Of a stretch of 64,000 nt of DNA, positions 27,243-48,632 are shown one piece after another. The position numbers and the translations under genes are program-made. Positions within the stretch are counted from its first letter, which is position 1. Each line of letters begins with the position of its first letter. The notes under the pieces were generated by a model. That model ran no database searches. It was given only the letters and a program-made list of their open reading frames with translations, and was not told the DNA's origin. The stretch comes from Escherichia coli (GTDB taxonomy: Bacteria; Pseudomonadota; Gammaproteobacteria; Enterobacterales; Enterobacteriaceae): the NCBI RefSeq assembly GCF_030013595.1, contig NZ_CP122768.1. The stretch is one strand, 5' to 3'.

Positions 27243-27461
27243 GATATGGGGTTTGGCCGTTGTTAATGAGCAGGACAATCATGACCGCCAACGACTGGAT
27301 TCTCCCTTGGTTTATGTTGGTGCGCATAATGTATATTATGTTAAATAGCCTACGATGGTAAACAACTTCATAAATCTCCATTGCCTTTCACGAAATCAAC
27401 AGGTTAACGATTTCTAACATCCCTCCCATTTCTTGCGTTAGGTGTAGAGTACATTTACTTC

Positions 27462-28280
27462 ATGTCCGCATCAACAATGAGGTTATCTATGTACTCGCTC
27501 AACCAACTAGTTGCCATCAACCACAAACGGCAATGGATTCTGATGGACACGGAAACCTGCTTACCGTTGTTGTACCCACTCAGATATCACATCGATCATT
27601 TGGCTTTTCGTTCATTGTCCACGCAGTCTGCTTCGCTGCAGGCCGTTAAGTTCTTTTACGAATTTTGGTTGCAGAAACACGGCGTCACGTTTTGCTATAG
27701 CTTCTATGCTTCTGGCCACAACCCGTGCATTGCTATTGAGGAAATGTCGGCATTTTCTCACTATCTGGAGAATGGTCGCGTAAGCCAATCAAATTTATTG
27801 GCATTCACTCCAGTCTCCACTTCCCATAGTTTTATCAACGCAGCGCGATTTCGTGCAGTAGCGCAGTTTATTGCTTTTTTGATTAACACGTATGTATCGC
27901 CGGTATATCGGGATGATTCTCCCAAAGCATTATCACTCCAGGCTTCCCGGTTACATACTCGCCTGCGCTTTTGTCGTGACAGTTATCGAGCGTTAACACC
28001 GGGAAAGCATTCTAACCATCGTCATATCCATCAGGGGTTTCAGAGTATGAACCGTGAAATGGTGATCAGTCTGTACACGATTATTGCTCCCTGCTCTAGC
28101 CAAAAATATAACCCATTAAATCCCTTCCCCACCAGAAACACCCAGTTTCGCAACTTTTTGATTATTCGCCTGTTACTGAATTATGGATTGCGAATAGGTG
28201 AATTATTGCTGTTGGAATGCAATTCTATAAAATCAAATATAAAAAAGGATAAGTTTAGTTTGATTGTAACTACAACTTGA
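27462..28280 (+). CDS. Tyrosine recombinase, N-terminal part (Tn554 TnpA-like / GInt integrase 1); probably disrupted
   Basis: 272-aa ORF ending shortly after a box-I-like segment (FLIIRLLLNYGLRIGELLLLECNSI); the catalytic C-terminal motifs are in the next ORF. Confidence 0.55.
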   Translation: MSASTMRLSMYSLNQLVAINHKRQWILMDTETCLPLLYPLRYHIDHLAFRSLSTQSASLQAVKFFYEFWLQKHGVTFCYSFYASGHNPCIAIEEMSAFSHYLENGRVSQSNLLAFTPVSTSHSFINAARFRAVAQFIAFLINTYVSPVYRDDSPKALSLQASRLHTRLRFCRDSYRALTPGKHSNHRHIHQGFQSMNREMVISLYTIIAPCSSQKYNPLNPFPTRNTQFRNFLIIRLLLNYGLRIGELLLLECNSIKSNIKKDKFSLIVTTT

Positions 28281-28305
28281 ATTTAGTCACTCTGCACCGT
28301 TTTAT

Positions 28306-28947
28306 GTGTCCAGGTCGATTAACCAGGTCATCCTTAGTTTCAGTCCGCCAGATTATCAGGCCGCCGTAGCGCGTGGCGAAGCGGCTCTACCAATTATTAC
28401 GCCGACCGACTTGCGCCACAACGTGGGGCACTCACTGGCTATGCAAGGGGTCAGCGCCGAGGAAATCGCGCATATTCTGGGACATACCTCCCTTACTGTT
28501 GCCAAGTATTACATTTTGGCGACACCTGCGCTGGCACTGATTCGAGCCAAAGCGTTGGGTACCAATCCGGTATGGCAAAATATGGTAGCTATGATGTTGA
28601 CTGGTGAACTGACCTCTTCAACGAAATGGCAAGGCCAGCGCGTGGTCGGCATAATCGGTGATCAGTTGCATGATGGGATTGGTGGTTGCTCCAGAGATAA
28701 TGGCGACTGCCCGTTCAGTGAAGTACGCTGCTGCTACGGCTGCCTGTATTATCGCCCCTTTACTGATGGTGACCATCAGGCTGTGCTGGAGAGTGTAGTT
28801 AAAGAAGTCGATGAATTGATCTCCATTTCAGACAGTGTTGGTAACGCCCGCAATCCACTTATTTCCATCCATGAAACCACACAATTTGAAATTCAATCCG
28901 TGATTGCCCGTTGCCGCTTTCGTCAGGAAAAAGGCGGTGTGCGATGA
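28306..28947 (+). CDS. Tyrosine recombinase, C-terminal part (catalytic box II); continuation of the previous ORF
   Basis: Contains DLRHNVGHSLAMQGVSAEEIAHILGHTSLTVAKYY (R-H...H...Y catalytic signature). Separated from the upstream ORF by about 25 nt with a stop; the R-to-HxxR spacing looks shorter than usual. Confidence 0.55.
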   Translation: MSRSINQVILSFSPPDYQAAVARGEAALPIITPTDLRHNVGHSLAMQGVSAEEIAHILGHTSLTVAKYYILATPALALIRAKALGTNPVWQNMVAMMLTGELTSSTKWQGQRVVGIIGDQLHDGIGGCSRDNGDCPFSEVRCCYGCLYYRPFTDGDHQAVLESVVKEVDELISISDSVGNARNPLISIHETTQFEIQSVIARCRFRQEKGGVR

Positions 28948-46673: not shown

Positions 46674-47399
46674 GTGAAAAAGACTTTTATGCTTTTAATT
46701 TGCATGCTAATAAGCAGCCCTGTCTTTGCAACAAAACCGGACGCGCCGAATAAGCCGGAGATGAATATCTTCGAGCTCGGCATCAGACCCGATCGGGACA
46801 ACGACTTTGCAGACGTGGCCAGACAGACGATTTCCGCTTCGGTTGATCATGAAGCTGGTACACTGGCGATGTATGCCCTGAAACGCAGCGACAATTCAGG
46901 TCAGGCATTCATGTTCGAACTCTATGAAAATGAGCGTGCTTATCGCAAACATCTCAATGCCGCCCCATACAAAGCATTCGCTGCTCGTGCACCTGACATT
47001 ATTGACAGGAAGAAGAAAATTACCCTGGAGCCACAGTTTCTGGGCGACAAACACATCATACCGAATGAACGAACTATCAATAATCTGGTGATCGTCGAAG
47101 TAAAGCCTGAATTTCAGAGCGAATTTAGAAACATCGTCCTTCCTGAAATGGTCGAGTCGCTCAAAGTAGAGAAAGGCGTGTTAGCCATGTATGCCGGTAC
47201 AGATTCAGAGACTCCAAAACGATGGTATTTCTATGAGATTTACGCCAGTGAGGAGGATTATCAACTGCACCGACAAACGCTGCACTTCCTGGATTACCTC
47301 AGGCAAACGGCGCATATGAGCGCCAGGAAGGACGCAATCCCGGTAAAACCGGTATTTCTTCGTAACAAAGGCGGAATCAAACAGGAGCCGCAACGTTGA
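46674..47399 (+). CDS. Secreted protein with two ABM (antibiotic-biosynthesis-monooxygenase/Dabb) domains
   Basis: Signal peptide MKKTFMLLICMLISSPVFA; two repeats of an ABM-like core (…AMYALKR…FMFELYENERAYRKHL… and …AMYAGTD…YFYEIYASEEDYQLHRQT…). Confidence 0.55.
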   Translation: MKKTFMLLICMLISSPVFATKPDAPNKPEMNIFELGIRPDRDNDFADVARQTISASVDHEAGTLAMYALKRSDNSGQAFMFELYENERAYRKHLNAAPYKAFAARAPDIIDRKKKITLEPQFLGDKHIIPNERTINNLVIVEVKPEFQSEFRNIVLPEMVESLKVEKGVLAMYAGTDSETPKRWYFYEIYASEEDYQLHRQTLHFLDYLRQTAHMSARKDAIPVKPVFLRNKGGIKQEPQR

Positions 47400-47414
47400 C
47401 CAGTAAGGATTAAC

Positions 47415-48218
47415 ATGAAAAGCGTACTTGCAGCAGCGGCTATGTCGCTTGTTATTTCTGATTTTGCCAATGCTGAGGAAACAAGAGGTAAAGCTATGAT
47501 GAAAATAGAACCGTCAGCGATTTCGGAAGCTGATATTCGTTCCGTCTCACCGGCTCTCGCGCGCTTTGGTCGCGAAGCTATTACTGAAGATCTGTGGACA
47601 CGCGACGCCCTCTCACCGAGGGATCGTAGTGTGGTGACCGTCGCCATGCTGATTGCCCGCAACCAGCCTGCCGAGCTTAAGCACTATATTGACGTCGCTC
47701 TCGATAGCGGCGTGACGCCAGCGGAATTATCAGAAATCATTACCCATCTGGCGTTCTACTCAGGTTGGCCAAATGCAATGTCAGCCGTCAGCGTGACCAA
47801 AGCAGTATTTGAAACTCGTGGCGTCACGGCAGATGCACTTCCTGAAGCTTCTCCGGACCTGCTTCCTCTCAATCAGGAAGCAGAAAAGCAGCGTTCAGAG
47901 ACAGTGGAAAAAAATGTTGGCCCAATATCTCCAGGCCTGGTTAAATTCACTGCTGATCCACTCTTCCTGGATCTCTGGCAAAGACCCGCGCTGAAACCCC
48001 GCGACAGAAGCCTGATTACGGTCAGCGCCTTAATCGCATCCGGACAGAGCGCGCAGATTGGCTATCACCTCAATAGAGCAATGGATAATGGACTTTCTGT
48101 TGAGGAAGCTGGTGAGATCGTTACCCAGGCCGCCTTCTATGCTGGCTGGCCAAACGCATTTACCGCTGCTCCGGTTGTGGGAGAGGTGCTAAACAATCGA
48201 TCATCGAGTAAAAGGTAA
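47415..48218 (+). CDS. Secreted protein with two carboxymuconolactone decarboxylase (CMD/AhpD-like) domains
   Basis: Signal peptide MKSVLAAAAMSLVISDFANA; duplicated CMD-family motif (ITHLAFYSGWPNAMSA / VTQAAFYAGWPNAFTA). Confidence 0.6.
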   Translation: MKSVLAAAAMSLVISDFANAEETRGKAMMKIEPSAISEADIRSVSPALARFGREAITEDLWTRDALSPRDRSVVTVAMLIARNQPAELKHYIDVALDSGVTPAELSEIITHLAFYSGWPNAMSAVSVTKAVFETRGVTADALPEASPDLLPLNQEAEKQRSETVEKNVGPISPGLVKFTADPLFLDLWQRPALKPRDRSLITVSALIASGQSAQIGYHLNRAMDNGLSVEEAGEIVTQAAFYAGWPNAFTAAPVVGEVLNNRSSSKR

Positions 48219-48632
48219 CATTACTGAACACTAAAACCTGACGCACATCACAAAATTAGAACGATCAGTTCATGAACCAACAGACGTGACATCGAGTGAT
48301 TTATGGACAGCGTTTAACACAGTTATGAACCAAAACTGAGTTCATAACTGTGAGTTTGAATCGTCATTTGATTAATATCCATTTAAAACAGTTTGTTATG
48401 CTGTTTCTGGTGCTGAAGTCAATTATGTATATCCCTCAAACCCAGAATAGTTAAATGGAATTTGAGTGATGCGAAGCGATTTTACGGTCGTCGTTATTAC
48501 TTCAGGGTTCCAGAACATAAAGCCTCTCCTCTTTCATGATTGGCCTGTGCATACCGGATATAGGCTGGCTGGTATGCAGGTTTGCCGTTTGCCGCATCTT
48601 CCCTGCGTTGAAGAGTCAGGCTGGCAAACCGC

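What the first reader, a model, noticed from the sequence alone, without database searches (positions are those of the whole stretch)
27243..48632. About 21 kb of accessory DNA between hipA and the yneL fragment, absent from K-12
In K-12, as I recall it, hipA is directly adjacent to yneL and the ydeT usher fragment. Here the two are separated by about 21.4 kb holding four modules: a tandem tyrosine-recombinase module, an AT-rich defense-like cargo, an IS91-family element, and a LysR-regulated oxidoreductase cluster. The flanks are perfectly syntenic core genes, so this is a composite island or a region K-12 has lost.
Basis: partly seen in the sequence, partly recalled or inferred. Interest (0 to 1): 0.6.

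Follow-up and report, generated by a model that had tools for sequence, protein, structure and literature searches.

The report
Two stacked islands at chromosomal dif
The 21 kb missing from K-12 is two mobile islands of the three-integrase "GInt" type, one carrying a Lamassu anti-phage system, inserted one after the other exactly at the outer edge of dif, the chromosome's dimer-resolution site, and related islands in other genera and on plasmids sit at the same kind of site.

Summary
K-12 aligns up to window 27346 and resumes, as a diverged allele, at 48457, so 21,110 bp (27347-48456) are extra.

The DNA is neither one island nor a K-12 loss. The canonical 28-bp dif site sits at 27319-27346. 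Two elements are stacked directly after its XerD-binding arm, each ending in the same GTTAAAT.

[quoted passage not shown] A 1,472-bp deletion has fused ginA and ginB, so it should be immobile. It carries an intact Lamassu system (lmuA, lmuC, lmuB) and a later 1,828-bp IS91-family insertion. Its intact twin lies on conjugative Klebsiella plasmids.
- **E2 (40673-48456, 7.8 kb)** is the LysR/oxidoreductase cluster. It keeps only 66 nt of the left end of a second GInt lineage and no gin genes.

The main new point is target choice. All 31 related gin operons examined, in eight genera and on ten plasmid loci, begin right after the XerD arm of a dif or dif-like site. The XerC arm, central region and upstream flank vary, so the crossover lies at the arm's edge, unlike Xer-exploiting elements.

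hipA-ydeT is published defence hotspot #20, and GInts are known. No searchable paper links GInts to dif.

The parts
27319..27346 (+). Chromosomal dif site: XerC arm GGTGCGCATAA, central region TGTATA, XerD arm TTATGTTAAAT. It is intact. Its last 7 nt, GTTAAAT (27340-27346), are the crossover core shared with both islands.
   Evidence: Exact single match; 0 matches in 100 shuffles. The sequence is listed as the experimentally confirmed E. coli dif in PMC3025954.
27347..40672 (+). E1: a GInt-type island of 13,326 bp, decayed and carrying a Lamassu system.
   Evidence: Absent from strain 300033, which has a clean empty site. An intact twin of 12,970 bp at 99.5-99.8% identity lies on K. pneumoniae plasmid CP113223.1.
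27462..28280 (+). ginA remnant: the N-terminal 272 codons only; the catalytic C-terminal half is deleted.
   Evidence: Alignment with intact GinA of 446-472 aa. The deletion junction is at 28277, with 1,472 bp missing relative to L027.
28306..28947 (+). ginB remnant: the C-terminal 213 codons only.
   Evidence: NCBIfam integrase_1 NF041502, E 4e-17, matching profile positions 318-484 only. Intact GinB is 516-525 aa.
28944..31310 (+). ginC, 788 aa, intact: a protein with a tyrosine-recombinase fold.
31310..31744 (+). ginD, 144 aa, intact: the small fourth gene of the operon.
   Evidence: Same position and size (143-149 aa) in 21 related loci. No family hit.
31909..32419 (-). Two overlapping small genes: a 64-aa Xre/ParS/MbcA antitoxin-like domain and a 110-aa helix-turn-helix protein.
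   Evidence: NCBIfam NF049845, E 2e-12. PADLOC 'Control_protein', E 3e-25.
32504..33076 (+). A 190-aa hypothetical gene, conserved after ginD in both GInt lineages.
   Evidence: Homologues of 186-190 aa are present in L001, L004, L008, L009, L011 and L036. Only a weak AbiEi hit, E 0.004.
33892..36219 (-). lmuB: the SMC-like ABC ATPase of Lamassu, 775 aa.
   Evidence: PADLOC LmuB PDLC03859, E 7e-69, full length. RefSeq calls it 'AAA family ATPase'.
36185..36940 (-). lmuC: middle component 1 of the ABC-3C system, 251 aa.
   Evidence: PADLOC LmuC, E 3e-14. RefSeq name.
36933..38195 (-). lmuA: the effector, with an N-terminal Cap4-type nuclease domain and the ABC-3C CTD1 domain. The RefSeq start codon corresponds to 38178.
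   Evidence: PADLOC LmuA, E 7e-21. Pfam CTD1 PF20276, E 3e-25, and Cap4_nuclease PF14130, E 8e-5.
38339..40166 (-). IS91-family insertion sequence, 1,828 bp (transposase 38525-39757, orf121 39712-40077), inserted about 160 bp upstream of lmuA.
   Evidence: NCBIfam transpos_IS91, 287 bits against a cutoff of 125. Absent from L001 and from the plasmid twin. No target duplication. 99.9% identical to copies on porcine ETEC plasmids.
40167..40672 (+). AT-rich 3' end of the GInt, ending in attR ATAAGTTAAAT (40662-40672). This resembles a XerD arm at 9 of 11 positions and has no XerC arm or central region.
   Evidence: GC 0.40. The last ~190 nt are conserved among GInt variants, and the last 39 nt are nearly invariant.
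40673..48456 (+). E2: a 7,784-bp island without gin genes, ending in AATAGTTAAAT (core 48450-48456).
   Evidence: APEC O2-211 and DFL.5 join dif directly to window 48457. E2 is present without E1 in strain 300033.
40673..40738 (+). 66-nt remnant of the left end of a second GInt lineage.
   Evidence: 87-88% identical (E 3e-20 and 1e-20) to the left ends of intact GInts in L032, L033 and L036, which also start right after a dif or dif-like site.
40965..41864 (-). LysR-family regulator, transcribed divergently from the cargo operon.
   Evidence: NCBIfam YafC-like, E 8e-48, below the curated cutoff. RefSeq annotation.
42001..48218 (+). Cargo operon: a 103-aa hypothetical, a DJ-1/PfpI protein, two aldo-keto reductases, amidohydrolase fragments, a KefF-like NAD(P)H oxidoreductase, an ABM monooxygenase, and a carboxymuconolactone-decarboxylase-family protein.
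   Evidence: NCBIfam family-level hits, all below the curated cutoffs. RefSeq names.
48606..48887 (+). yneL-like C-terminal fragment of an AraC-family regulator. This is core DNA, outside the islands.
   Evidence: NCBIfam AraC-family hits covering C-terminal positions only. Annotated 'missing N-terminus' in L002.

Best explanation
The extra DNA is a tandem array of two GInt-type integrative islands at the chromosomal dif site.

**How they integrate (inferred).** GInts integrate through their own ginABCD-encoded recombinases. These two lineages use as attB the outer part of the XerD-binding arm of a Xer site, with crossover inside GTTAAAT. dif stays intact, and each newcomer lands next to dif and pushes older elements outward.

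**Order of events.** E2 arrived first and later lost its gin operon; only 66 nt of its left end remain. Its cargo looks like an aldehyde/quinone detoxification cluster. E1 arrived later, probably from a conjugative plasmid that carries a dif-like site. It brought a Lamassu system: LmuB (SMC-like ATPase), LmuC, and LmuA (Cap4-type nuclease effector). From published work on this family, Lamassu is expected to stop phage or plasmid replication by nuclease activation.

**State of this copy.** A 1,472-bp deletion removed the catalytic half of GinA and the N-terminal 294 codons of GinB. E1 should therefore be unable to excise without help in trans. An IS91-family element then inserted about 160 bp upstream of lmuA.

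**Shown:** boundaries, repeats, empty sites, gene content, decay, and the site association. **Inferred:** the catalysis and the defence activity.
For: **Boundaries and empty sites**
- dif is exact at 27319-27346 (sequence confirmed).
- Empty and single-occupancy sites define both elements to the base.
- The repeats are TTATGTTAAAT, ATAAGTTAAAT and AATAGTTAAAT, sharing the core GTTAAAT.

**GInt identity**
- The four-gene order and sizes, about 450-490 / 516-525 / 787-812 / 143-149 aa starting 80-212 nt after the site, recur in 21 loci of the E1 lineage; 17 of them carry all four genes in this order.
- Cargo after ginD varies: Lamassu, type I restriction-modification, CBASS.
- The 3' end is conserved and AT-rich.
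- All of this fits the published GInt definition (PMC5385486).

**Site specificity**
- All 31 gin operons with readable upstream DNA begin right after the XerD arm of a dif or dif-like site. They comprise 10 in E. coli, the tandem second copy in strain H7 lying after the first element's attR, 11 of 11 in other species and 10 plasmid loci.
- The XerC arm, central region and upstream flank all vary.
- The same 99.5%-identical element sits after GGTGCGCATAA-TGTATA in the window and after AGTACGCATAA-CAAAGA on a plasmid. Those parts therefore belong to the target, and the crossover lies to their right.

**Order and decay**
- E2 alone is in 428 of 5,426 genomes. The only genomes found carrying E1's Lamassu next to part of E2 are the two near-identical H1/H2 chromosomes.
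- Tandem GInts also occur in strain H7.
- Deletion and IS insertion.

**Cargo**
- Lamassu.
Against: - No experiment here shows excision or integration.
- The window's own gin operon is broken.
- Direct homology to the founding Pseudomonas GInt proteins was not tested. The nearest Pseudomonas hit is 28% identical over 61% of GinB.
- E2's link to GInts rests on 66 nt plus the shared site and core. Its right end does not resemble the common GInt right end.
- The survey of other loci was seeded with one GinB clade, so it does not show that all GInts target dif. Published ones target ssb or an ABC-transporter gene.
Confidence: 0.8

Rival explanations
1. The islands are IMEXs (integrative mobile elements exploiting Xer). 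Host XerC/XerD would integrate them by recombining a dif-like site on the element with chromosomal dif, as for CTX, VGJ and TLC phages or the gonococcal island.
For: The islands sit at dif, and the element's right end resembles a XerD arm at 9 of 11 positions. A genuine IMEX, a tandem filamentous prophage, occupies the same locus in strain ERP001.
Against: - attR has no XerC arm (2 of 11 matches, by inspection of the sequence) and no dif-like central region.
- The whole 28-bp dif is preserved at attL, and the identity block is only GTTAAAT.
- The same element lies beside different XerC arms and central regions.
- Intact relatives encode three recombinase-fold proteins of their own.
- In ERP001 the homology to the hipA flank ends inside the dif central region, unlike here.
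Confidence: 0.07
2. The 21 kb is ancestral E. coli DNA that the K-12 lineage lost by deletion.
For: K-12 has lost neighbouring DNA: 49143-52424 is missing, leaving the ydeT usher fragment. E2 has core-like GC (0.50) and is present in 428 genomes.
Against: - Three different states (none, E2 only, E1-type only) have base-precise boundaries at the same GTTAAAT.
- K-12's 207 bp is the homologous empty flank, not a deletion scar.
- The K-12-type junction is in 2,581 of 5,426 genomes.
- E1 is 99.5-99.9% identical to plasmid copies in Klebsiella.
Confidence: 0.04
3. E2 is not a GInt derivative. It would be an unrelated gene cluster that came to lie beside dif, for example as cargo left by another kind of element or carried in by recombination, and the 66-nt match would be a fragment of an older, unrelated GInt scar.
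For: E2 has no gin genes. Its right end shows no BLAST similarity to GInt right ends. GInt left-end scars without gin genes exist elsewhere, for example in FDAARGOS_1255 (L005).
Against: E2 begins exactly at the core with the lineage-2 left end (E 3e-20). It ends exactly in a third copy of GTTAAAT, with a clean empty site in APEC O2-211. That is what a complete element missing only its gin operon would look like.
Confidence: 0.15

Closest known systems
[quoted passage not shown] 2017, PMC5385486; also called the Tn6571 family)
   Same: A ginABCD-type operon at one end, variable cargo starting right after the fourth gene, a short AT-rich 3' end, imperfect direct repeats of 10-17 nt, site-specific insertion, and truncated copies common in genomes. 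GInts are already reported in Escherichia (7.5% of replicons, PMC10214605) and as carriers of defence systems in E. coli (PMC10121019).
   Different: Published targets are the ends of protein genes (an ABC transporter, ssb, ribonucleotide reductase). Here the target is the XerD arm of dif and of plasmid dif-like sites. [quoted passage not shown] GinC in this clade keeps an invariant Arg in a GFRSxE motif, whereas published GinC is said to lack the first Arg.
IMEXs (CTX, VGJ and TLC phages, the gonococcal genetic island, CUS-like filamentous prophages)
   Same: They live at dif, stack in tandem arrays with the newest copy next to the functional dif, and leave one functional dif.
   Different: IMEXs encode no recombinase and cross over in the dif central region using XerC/XerD. 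These islands encode their own three recombinase-fold proteins and cross over at the outer edge of the XerD arm.
ISAba32 subgroup of the IS1202 family (ISKpn21, ISAjo2; PMC10132070, bioRxiv 2022.12.17.520857)
   Same: They target chromosomal dif and plasmid dif-like sites at a fixed distance and orientation, and they form arrays with the last arrival nearest the site. On five of the plasmids examined and on one E. coli chromosome (A29) an ISNCY-family element flanks the XerC side of the very site whose XerD side holds a GInt.
   Different: These are DDE transposons that insert 5 bp from the XerC arm with a 5-bp duplication. The GInts use tyrosine recombinases, sit on the XerD side, and make no duplication beyond the shared core.
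E. coli defence-island hotspot #20, hipA-ydeT (Hochhauser et al. 2023, PMC10121019)
   Same: The same locus. It is listed as occupied in 62 of 783 genomes.
   Different: That paper defines the hotspot by its flanking genes and does not mention dif, XerC or XerD.
Lamassu / ABC-3C systems with a Cap4-type nuclease effector
   Same: Three genes (lmuA, lmuC, lmuB) with matching PADLOC and Pfam profiles.
   Different: Nothing unusual was detected. This allele is rare on E. coli chromosomes (17 of 5,426 genomes) and also lies on 17 plasmids.

Membership tests
GInt | Four-gene operon at the 5' end: three tyrosine-recombinase-like genes followed by a small gene | tested here: met
   Conserved order and sizes in 21 related loci, 17 of which carry all four genes. 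The window copy has the same genes, but ginA and ginB are fused by a 1,472-bp deletion.
GInt | GinA and GinB carry integrase catalytic domains | tested here: met
   Intact GinB: NF041502, E 1e-24, plus XerD/XerC/XerA models. Intact GinA: XerA model, E 1.5e-6. All scores are below the curated cutoffs, so the assignment is at family level only.
GInt | GinC is related to tyrosine recombinases | tested here: met
GInt | GinD is a small protein with a C-terminal helix-loop-helix or coiled coil | not tested
   Only size and position were checked (143-149 aa). No family hit.
GInt | Variable cargo starting at the end of ginD | tested here: met
   Lamassu, type I restriction-modification and CBASS in different strains, all behind related gin operons.
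GInt | Short, AT-rich, partly conserved 3' end | tested here: met
   Window 40167-40672 has GC 0.40. The last ~190 nt are 78-86% conserved among variants, and the last 39 nt are nearly invariant.
GInt | Flanked by imperfect direct repeats of 10-17 nt | tested here: met
   TTATGTTAAAT and ATAAGTTAAAT match at 9 of 11 positions.
GInt | Sequence homology to the founding Pseudomonas GinABCD proteins | tested here: inconclusive
   The founding proteins were not available. tblastn with GinB finds P. aeruginosa plasmid genes at 26-28% identity. PMC10214605 reports GInts in Escherichia by PSI-BLAST starting from Pseudomonas GinC and GinD.
GInt | Excision as a circle and integration, each requiring all four genes | not testable with these tools
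   Needs PCR or genetics.
IMEX | No recombinase of its own; integration by host XerC/XerD | tested here: not met
   Intact relatives encode GinA, GinB and GinC.
IMEX | Crossover in the dif central region, leaving XerC/XerD-type sites at both ends | tested here: not met
   The full dif is kept at attL. attR has only a XerD-arm-like 11-mer. Identity is limited to GTTAAAT.
Acinetobacter-type dif modules | Flanked by complete XerC/XerD sites in inverse orientation | tested here: not met
   There is a single complete site in the window, and the flanking repeats are direct.
Lamassu | LmuB SMC-like ATPase, LmuC, and LmuA with an effector domain, in one operon | tested here: met
   PADLOC: LmuB 7e-69, LmuC 3e-14, LmuA 7e-21. 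Pfam: CTD1 3e-25 and Cap4_nuclease 8e-5. All three ORFs are intact and overlapping.
Lamassu | Protects against phage | not testable with these tools
   Needs a phage challenge.
IS91 family | IS91-type transposase, and no target-site duplication | tested here: met
   NF033538, 287 bits against a cutoff of 125. The insert is 1,828 bp with no duplication at the junctions.

The most novel reading that the evidence does not exclude
This GInt group may be guided to its target by the host Xer machinery rather than by DNA sequence alone. The Gin recombinases would recognise XerD bound to its arm (or the XerCD-dif complex) and cut at the arm's outer edge. Every dif and plasmid dimer-resolution site would then be a universal landing pad, letting non-conjugative defence islands shuttle between conjugative plasmids and chromosomes across genera.

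The weaker form of this claim is only that a large GInt group is specific for the XerD-arm edge of Xer sites and that this has not been reported. That form is much more likely; I put it at about 0.55 once the chance of unseen prior literature is counted.
Probability: 0.2. Interest if true: 0.8.

Novelty: new variant of a known kind. Interest (0 to 1): 0.6.

Why it matters
- **It explains a published hotspot.** The E. coli defence-island hotspot hipA-ydeT exists because it is the dif site.
- **It adds a third kind of element at Xer sites.** Alongside Xer-dependent IMEXs and IS1202-family insertion sequences, there is now an element that uses its own recombinases at the edge of the XerD arm.
- **It suggests a transfer route.** dif-like sites are on conjugative plasmids and in every chromosome. 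Non-conjugative GInts could therefore move defence, restriction and detoxification cargo between genera. Here an identical Lamassu island is found on Klebsiella, Raoultella and E. coli plasmids and on E. coli chromosomes.
- **It shows how composite islands form.** Tandem stacking followed by internal deletion is visible at different stages in the window, in H7 and in MB57.
- **It points to a possible tool.** A recombinase system that targets a universally conserved, single-copy, neutral site could be useful for chromosomal integration.

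Tried and rejected
- **Profile-profile comparison.** hhalign of small GinC, GinA, GinB and GinD alignments gave nothing significant, even for GinA against GinB. I used structure prediction instead.
- **Promoter scans.** Scans either side of the IS91 insertion found no sigma-70-like site. Whether the IS silences lmuACB cannot be told.
- **E2 ends against GInt loci.** BLAST of E2's terminal 300 bp against the first set of GInt loci found nothing. The left-end match appeared only after lineage-2 GInts were fetched.
- **Lineage-2 right end.** I looked for one to compare with E2's right end. 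Plasmid CP061755.1 is too broken up by IS elements, and the element in strain EC01 has a truncated right end of the common type. E2's right end therefore remains unmatched.
- **tRNA target.** Considered and rejected: there are no tRNA genes in 25000-50000.
- **One 21-kb element.** Considered and rejected: E1 and E2 each occur separately.
- **Upstream recognition motifs.** The E. coli-specific motifs upstream of dif that recur in the GInt right end are absent upstream of dif in other species and on plasmids, so they are unlikely to be recognition sites.

Full report
**1. Checking the observation**

BLAST of the window against that K-12 stretch aligns up to 27346 and resumes at 48678. K-12's 207 unaligned bases are a diverged allele of window 48457-48677. 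This shows when the K-12, DFL.5, APEC O2-211 and window sequences are laid side by side. The DNA absent from K-12 is therefore 27347-48456, 21,110 bp.

Two flank details need correcting. hipA has a 512-bp internal deletion and is frameshifted. K-12 also lacks 49143-52424, which is why it has only the ydeT usher fragment.

**2.

The sequence GGTGCGCATAATGTATATTATGTTAAAT occurs once in the window, at 27319-27346, with no match in 100 shuffles. It is the experimentally confirmed E. coli dif site (PMC3025954). It consists of an XerC arm, a 6-bp central region and the XerD arm TTATGTTAAAT. The extra DNA starts at the very next base.

**3. Two elements, not one**

- Strain 300033 (L002) has hipA, dif, then the LysR cluster. 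Relative to it the window carries an insertion at 27347-40672, which I call E1.
- APEC O2-211 (L013) and DFL.5 (L012) have dif joined directly to window 48457. The LysR cluster, 40673-48456, is therefore a second discrete insert, E2.
- MB57 (L004) has an E1-type element in a K-12-type locus without E2.

The three junction 11-mers are TTATGTTAAAT (the dif arm), ATAAGTTAAAT (end of E1) and AATAGTTAAAT (end of E2). They share only GTTAAAT.

**4. E1 is a decayed GInt**

Intact relatives have four genes starting 80-212 nt after dif. Their sizes are about 450-490, 516-525, 787-812 and 143-149 aa across 21 loci, 17 of which carry all four genes in this order.

- The first two are tyrosine recombinases.
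- Cargo differs between strains: Lamassu, type I restriction-modification, CBASS.
- The 3' end is AT-rich and conserved.

This is the published definition of a GInt. That definition comprises a ginABCD operon, variable cargo, a short AT-rich 3' end, imperfect repeats of 10-17 nt, and all four genes needed for excision and integration (PMC5385486).

The window copy is 99.5-99.8% identical to a 12,970-bp element on K. pneumoniae plasmid pSYCC6-1_3. It differs by a 1,472-bp deletion fusing the N-terminal half of ginA to the C-terminal 213 codons of ginB, and by a 1,828-bp IS91-family insertion. Published genetics show all four gin genes are needed, so this copy should be immobile unless complemented. 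That is an inference.

The IS is 99.9% identical to copies on porcine ETEC plasmids, including plasmids of strain HCP5S3_I2. That strain's chromosome is the closest relative of the window and lacks the insertion.

**5. Cargo of E1**

PADLOC profiles identify LmuB (E 7e-69), LmuC (3e-14) and LmuA (7e-21). Pfam finds the ABC-3C CTD1 domain (3e-25) and a Cap4-type nuclease domain (8e-5) in LmuA. All three ORFs are intact.

This is a Lamassu system of the Cap4-nuclease type. From published work on the family I expect nuclease-mediated abortive defence triggered by the SMC-like LmuB; this was not tested here. The IS lies about 160 bp upstream of lmuA, and its effect on expression cannot be told.

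**6. E2 is a GInt remnant of another lineage**

The first 66 nt of E2 are 87-88% identical (E 3e-20 and 1e-20) to the left ends of intact GInts of a second lineage, whose GinB is about 35% identical to E1's lineage. Those GInts lie on a K. oxytoca plasmid, on an E. coli IncHI1A plasmid and in the E. coli EC01 chromosome. Each begins right after a dif or dif-like site.

After those 66 nt E2 has no gin genes. It has a LysR regulator and an operon of a DJ-1/PfpI protein, two aldo-keto reductases, a KefF-like oxidoreductase, an ABM monooxygenase and a CMD-family protein. This suggests aldehyde or quinone detoxification, at family level only. Its right end ends in the core but does not resemble the common GInt right end. 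I therefore hold the GInt origin of E2 at about 0.7-0.8.

**7. Target specificity**

Every related gin operon I could examine begins directly after the XerD arm of a Xer site, 31 in all.

- **Ten in E. coli:** the window, L001, L004, L008, L009 (two copies), L010, L011 and L036 on chromosomes, plus pLD39-1. The second, tandem copy in L009 follows the first element's attR rather than dif itself.
- **Eleven of eleven other species** with upstream DNA, from a scan of one genome per species. These are Pectobacterium (three), E. whittamii, Enterobacter, Citrobacter (two), an unclassified Enterobacteriaceae bacterium, K. grimontii, Shewanella nanhaiensis at 39% GinB identity, and a record labelled Chryseobacterium.
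- **Ten plasmid loci,** including Aliivibrio and a P. aeruginosa plasmid whose site has an Acinetobacter-type XerC arm.

The XerD arm is TTATGTTAAAT in all but one case (TTATGTTAAAC). The XerC arm takes at least nine forms and the central region at least seven, and the DNA upstream of the site is unrelated between species. Several of the plasmid sites match or closely resemble dif-like sites already catalogued as targets of ISKpn21 and ISSen13 on their XerC side (PMC10132070). On five plasmids and one chromosome an ISNCY-family element does sit on that side of the same site.

**8. Mechanism**

One and the same element lies beside different XerC arms and central regions. attR lacks both. The only block of identity is GTTAAAT. 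The strand exchange must therefore occur within or at the edge of those 7 bp, not in the central region.

This argues against Xer catalysis. It fits a GInt-type reaction with staggered cuts of about 6 nt and imperfect att sites (PMC5385486). In contrast, the filamentous prophage at this locus in strain ERP001 breaks homology inside the dif central region, as expected of a true IMEX.

dif stays intact, so dimer resolution should be unaffected. New arrivals land next to dif. E2 alone is common (428 genomes), whereas E1's Lamassu next to part of E2 was seen only in two near-identical genomes and no complete genome covers 80% of the whole region. Strain H7 has two GInts in tandem.

MB57 looks like a later stage, in which two stacked elements have merged. 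It has one gin operon followed by type I restriction-modification, an IS911, and then the Lamassu module with its own HTH/hypothetical pair. Whether the Gin proteins read the DNA or XerD bound to it cannot be decided here.

**9. Population picture in 5,426 complete E. coli genomes**

| Feature | Genomes |
|---|---|
| K-12-type empty junction | 2,581 |
| E2, at least 80% covered | 428 |
| ginC-ginD of E1's lineage | 230 (9 places on plasmids) |
| Lineage-2 gin operon | 324, mostly on plasmids |
| This Lamassu allele | 17 |
| The full window configuration | none |

The same Lamassu cargo, at 99.9% identity, is on 17 plasmids of Klebsiella, Raoultella and E. coli. It is also linked to gin operons only about 74-87% identical to each other. 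This indicates exchange of modules between elements.

**10. What is known and what seems new**

GInts are known (PMC5385486) and were already found in Escherichia (PMC10214605). They have been noted as carriers of defence systems in E. coli, and hipA-ydeT is listed as hotspot #20, occupied in 62 of 783 genomes (PMC10121019). None of these papers mentions dif or Xer. No paper in the searchable library combines GInt or Tn6571 or ginA terms with 'dif site'. [quoted passage not shown]

I therefore rate the element itself as a member of a known kind, and its target choice and plasmid residence as a new variant. The library lacks most subscription journals, so prior description cannot be excluded.

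**11. Limits**

- Nothing here demonstrates recombination.
- The survey was seeded with one GinB clade and its distant relatives.
- Functions of the E2 genes are family-level guesses.

Noticed in passing
window 26432-27242 (junction 26872/26873): hipA has a 512-bp internal deletion relative to K-12, L001 and L002, and is frameshifted after about 147 codons. hipB (26166-26432) is intact, so the toxin of this toxin-antitoxin pair is dead in this strain.
   Followed up: partly
window 20488-25955: The ECSE_1600-family autotransporter (yneO in K-12) is split into two ORFs of 1,356 and 466 aa. The cause is a 1-nt length difference from the intact gene in L001. This is either a pseudogene or a sequencing error.
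   Followed up: no
window 49143-52424: A fimA-like gene, a chaperone and the N-terminal part of the usher are present here and in most strains but absent from K-12. K-12's ydeT 'usher fragment' therefore results from a separate K-12-lineage deletion, unrelated to the islands.
   Followed up: partly
window, whole; also L001-L029: KOPS motifs (GGGNAGGG) are perfectly polarised around dif: 3 on the + strand, all left of dif, and 9 on the - strand, all right of it. Of those 9, 2 are in E1 and 4 in E2. Across 20 gin operons there are 0 wrongly oriented and 29 correctly oriented motifs; across 7 whole elements the count is 0 against 18. One conserved motif encodes the NPFP peptide of GinA, so coding constraint may explain part of this.
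   Followed up: partly
window 40630-40672 versus 27279-27318: The GInt right end (TGGTTTATG-A-ACTGGATTCTC...) shares a 9-mer and an 11-mer with E. coli DNA just upstream of dif, in swapped order. Other species' dif flanks and the plasmid sites lack these motifs. Unexplained; possibly a relic of an old aberrant excision.
   Followed up: partly
L007, L026, L027, L028, L029, L033 (plasmids) and L011 (E. coli A29 chromosome): An ISNCY/IS1202-family element (ISKpn21-like) sits on the XerC side of the same dif-like site whose XerD side holds a GInt. Both faces of one Xer site are thus occupied by different site-seeking elements.
   Followed up: partly
L006 (E. coli ERP001): A tandem duplicated filamentous prophage (replication protein II/X, major coat protein, Zot-like protein, secretin) lies directly after hipA. 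Homology to the hipA flank stops inside the dif central region, as expected for a classical Xer-dependent integration at the same locus.
   Followed up: partly
L005 (FDAARGOS_1255) 9203-9290; L007 38421-38520: About 90 nt of a GInt left end remain after dif with no gin genes, followed by an acetylxylan esterase gene and a truncated LysR gene. Some E. coli lineages therefore carry only a scar of a former GInt.
   Followed up: partly
L009 (E. coli H7) 4158-28524; L004 (MB57): H7 has two GInts in tandem at dif. MB57 has one gin operon followed by type I restriction-modification and then a second HTH/hypothetical pair plus Lamassu, as if two stacked elements had merged by internal deletion. The identical Lamassu cargo is attached to gin operons only 74-87% identical to each other.
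   Followed up: partly
alignment A3 (GinC); window 28944-31310: GinC of this clade has an invariant R250 in a GFRSxE motif, H506-x-P-R509-H510, and Y541. These resemble the catalytic residues of tyrosine recombinases, although published GinC is said to lack the first arginine. The model's confidence is low around 509-541.
   Followed up: no
L034 (P. aeruginosa plasmid p3860P) 2526-2553: A distant two-integrase module (GinB 28% identical) starts right after ATTTCGTATAA-GAAATT-TTATGTTAAAC. From my own knowledge, that XerC arm is of the Acinetobacter plasmid pdif type, which hints that the association with Xer sites reaches beyond Enterobacterales.
   Followed up: no
L035 (E. coli plasmid CP061755.1) record 82613-93039: The same IncHI1A plasmid carries another multi-integrase module next to a CBASS system (NucC, Cap6, Cap7, cyclase). 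It was not examined.
   Followed up: no
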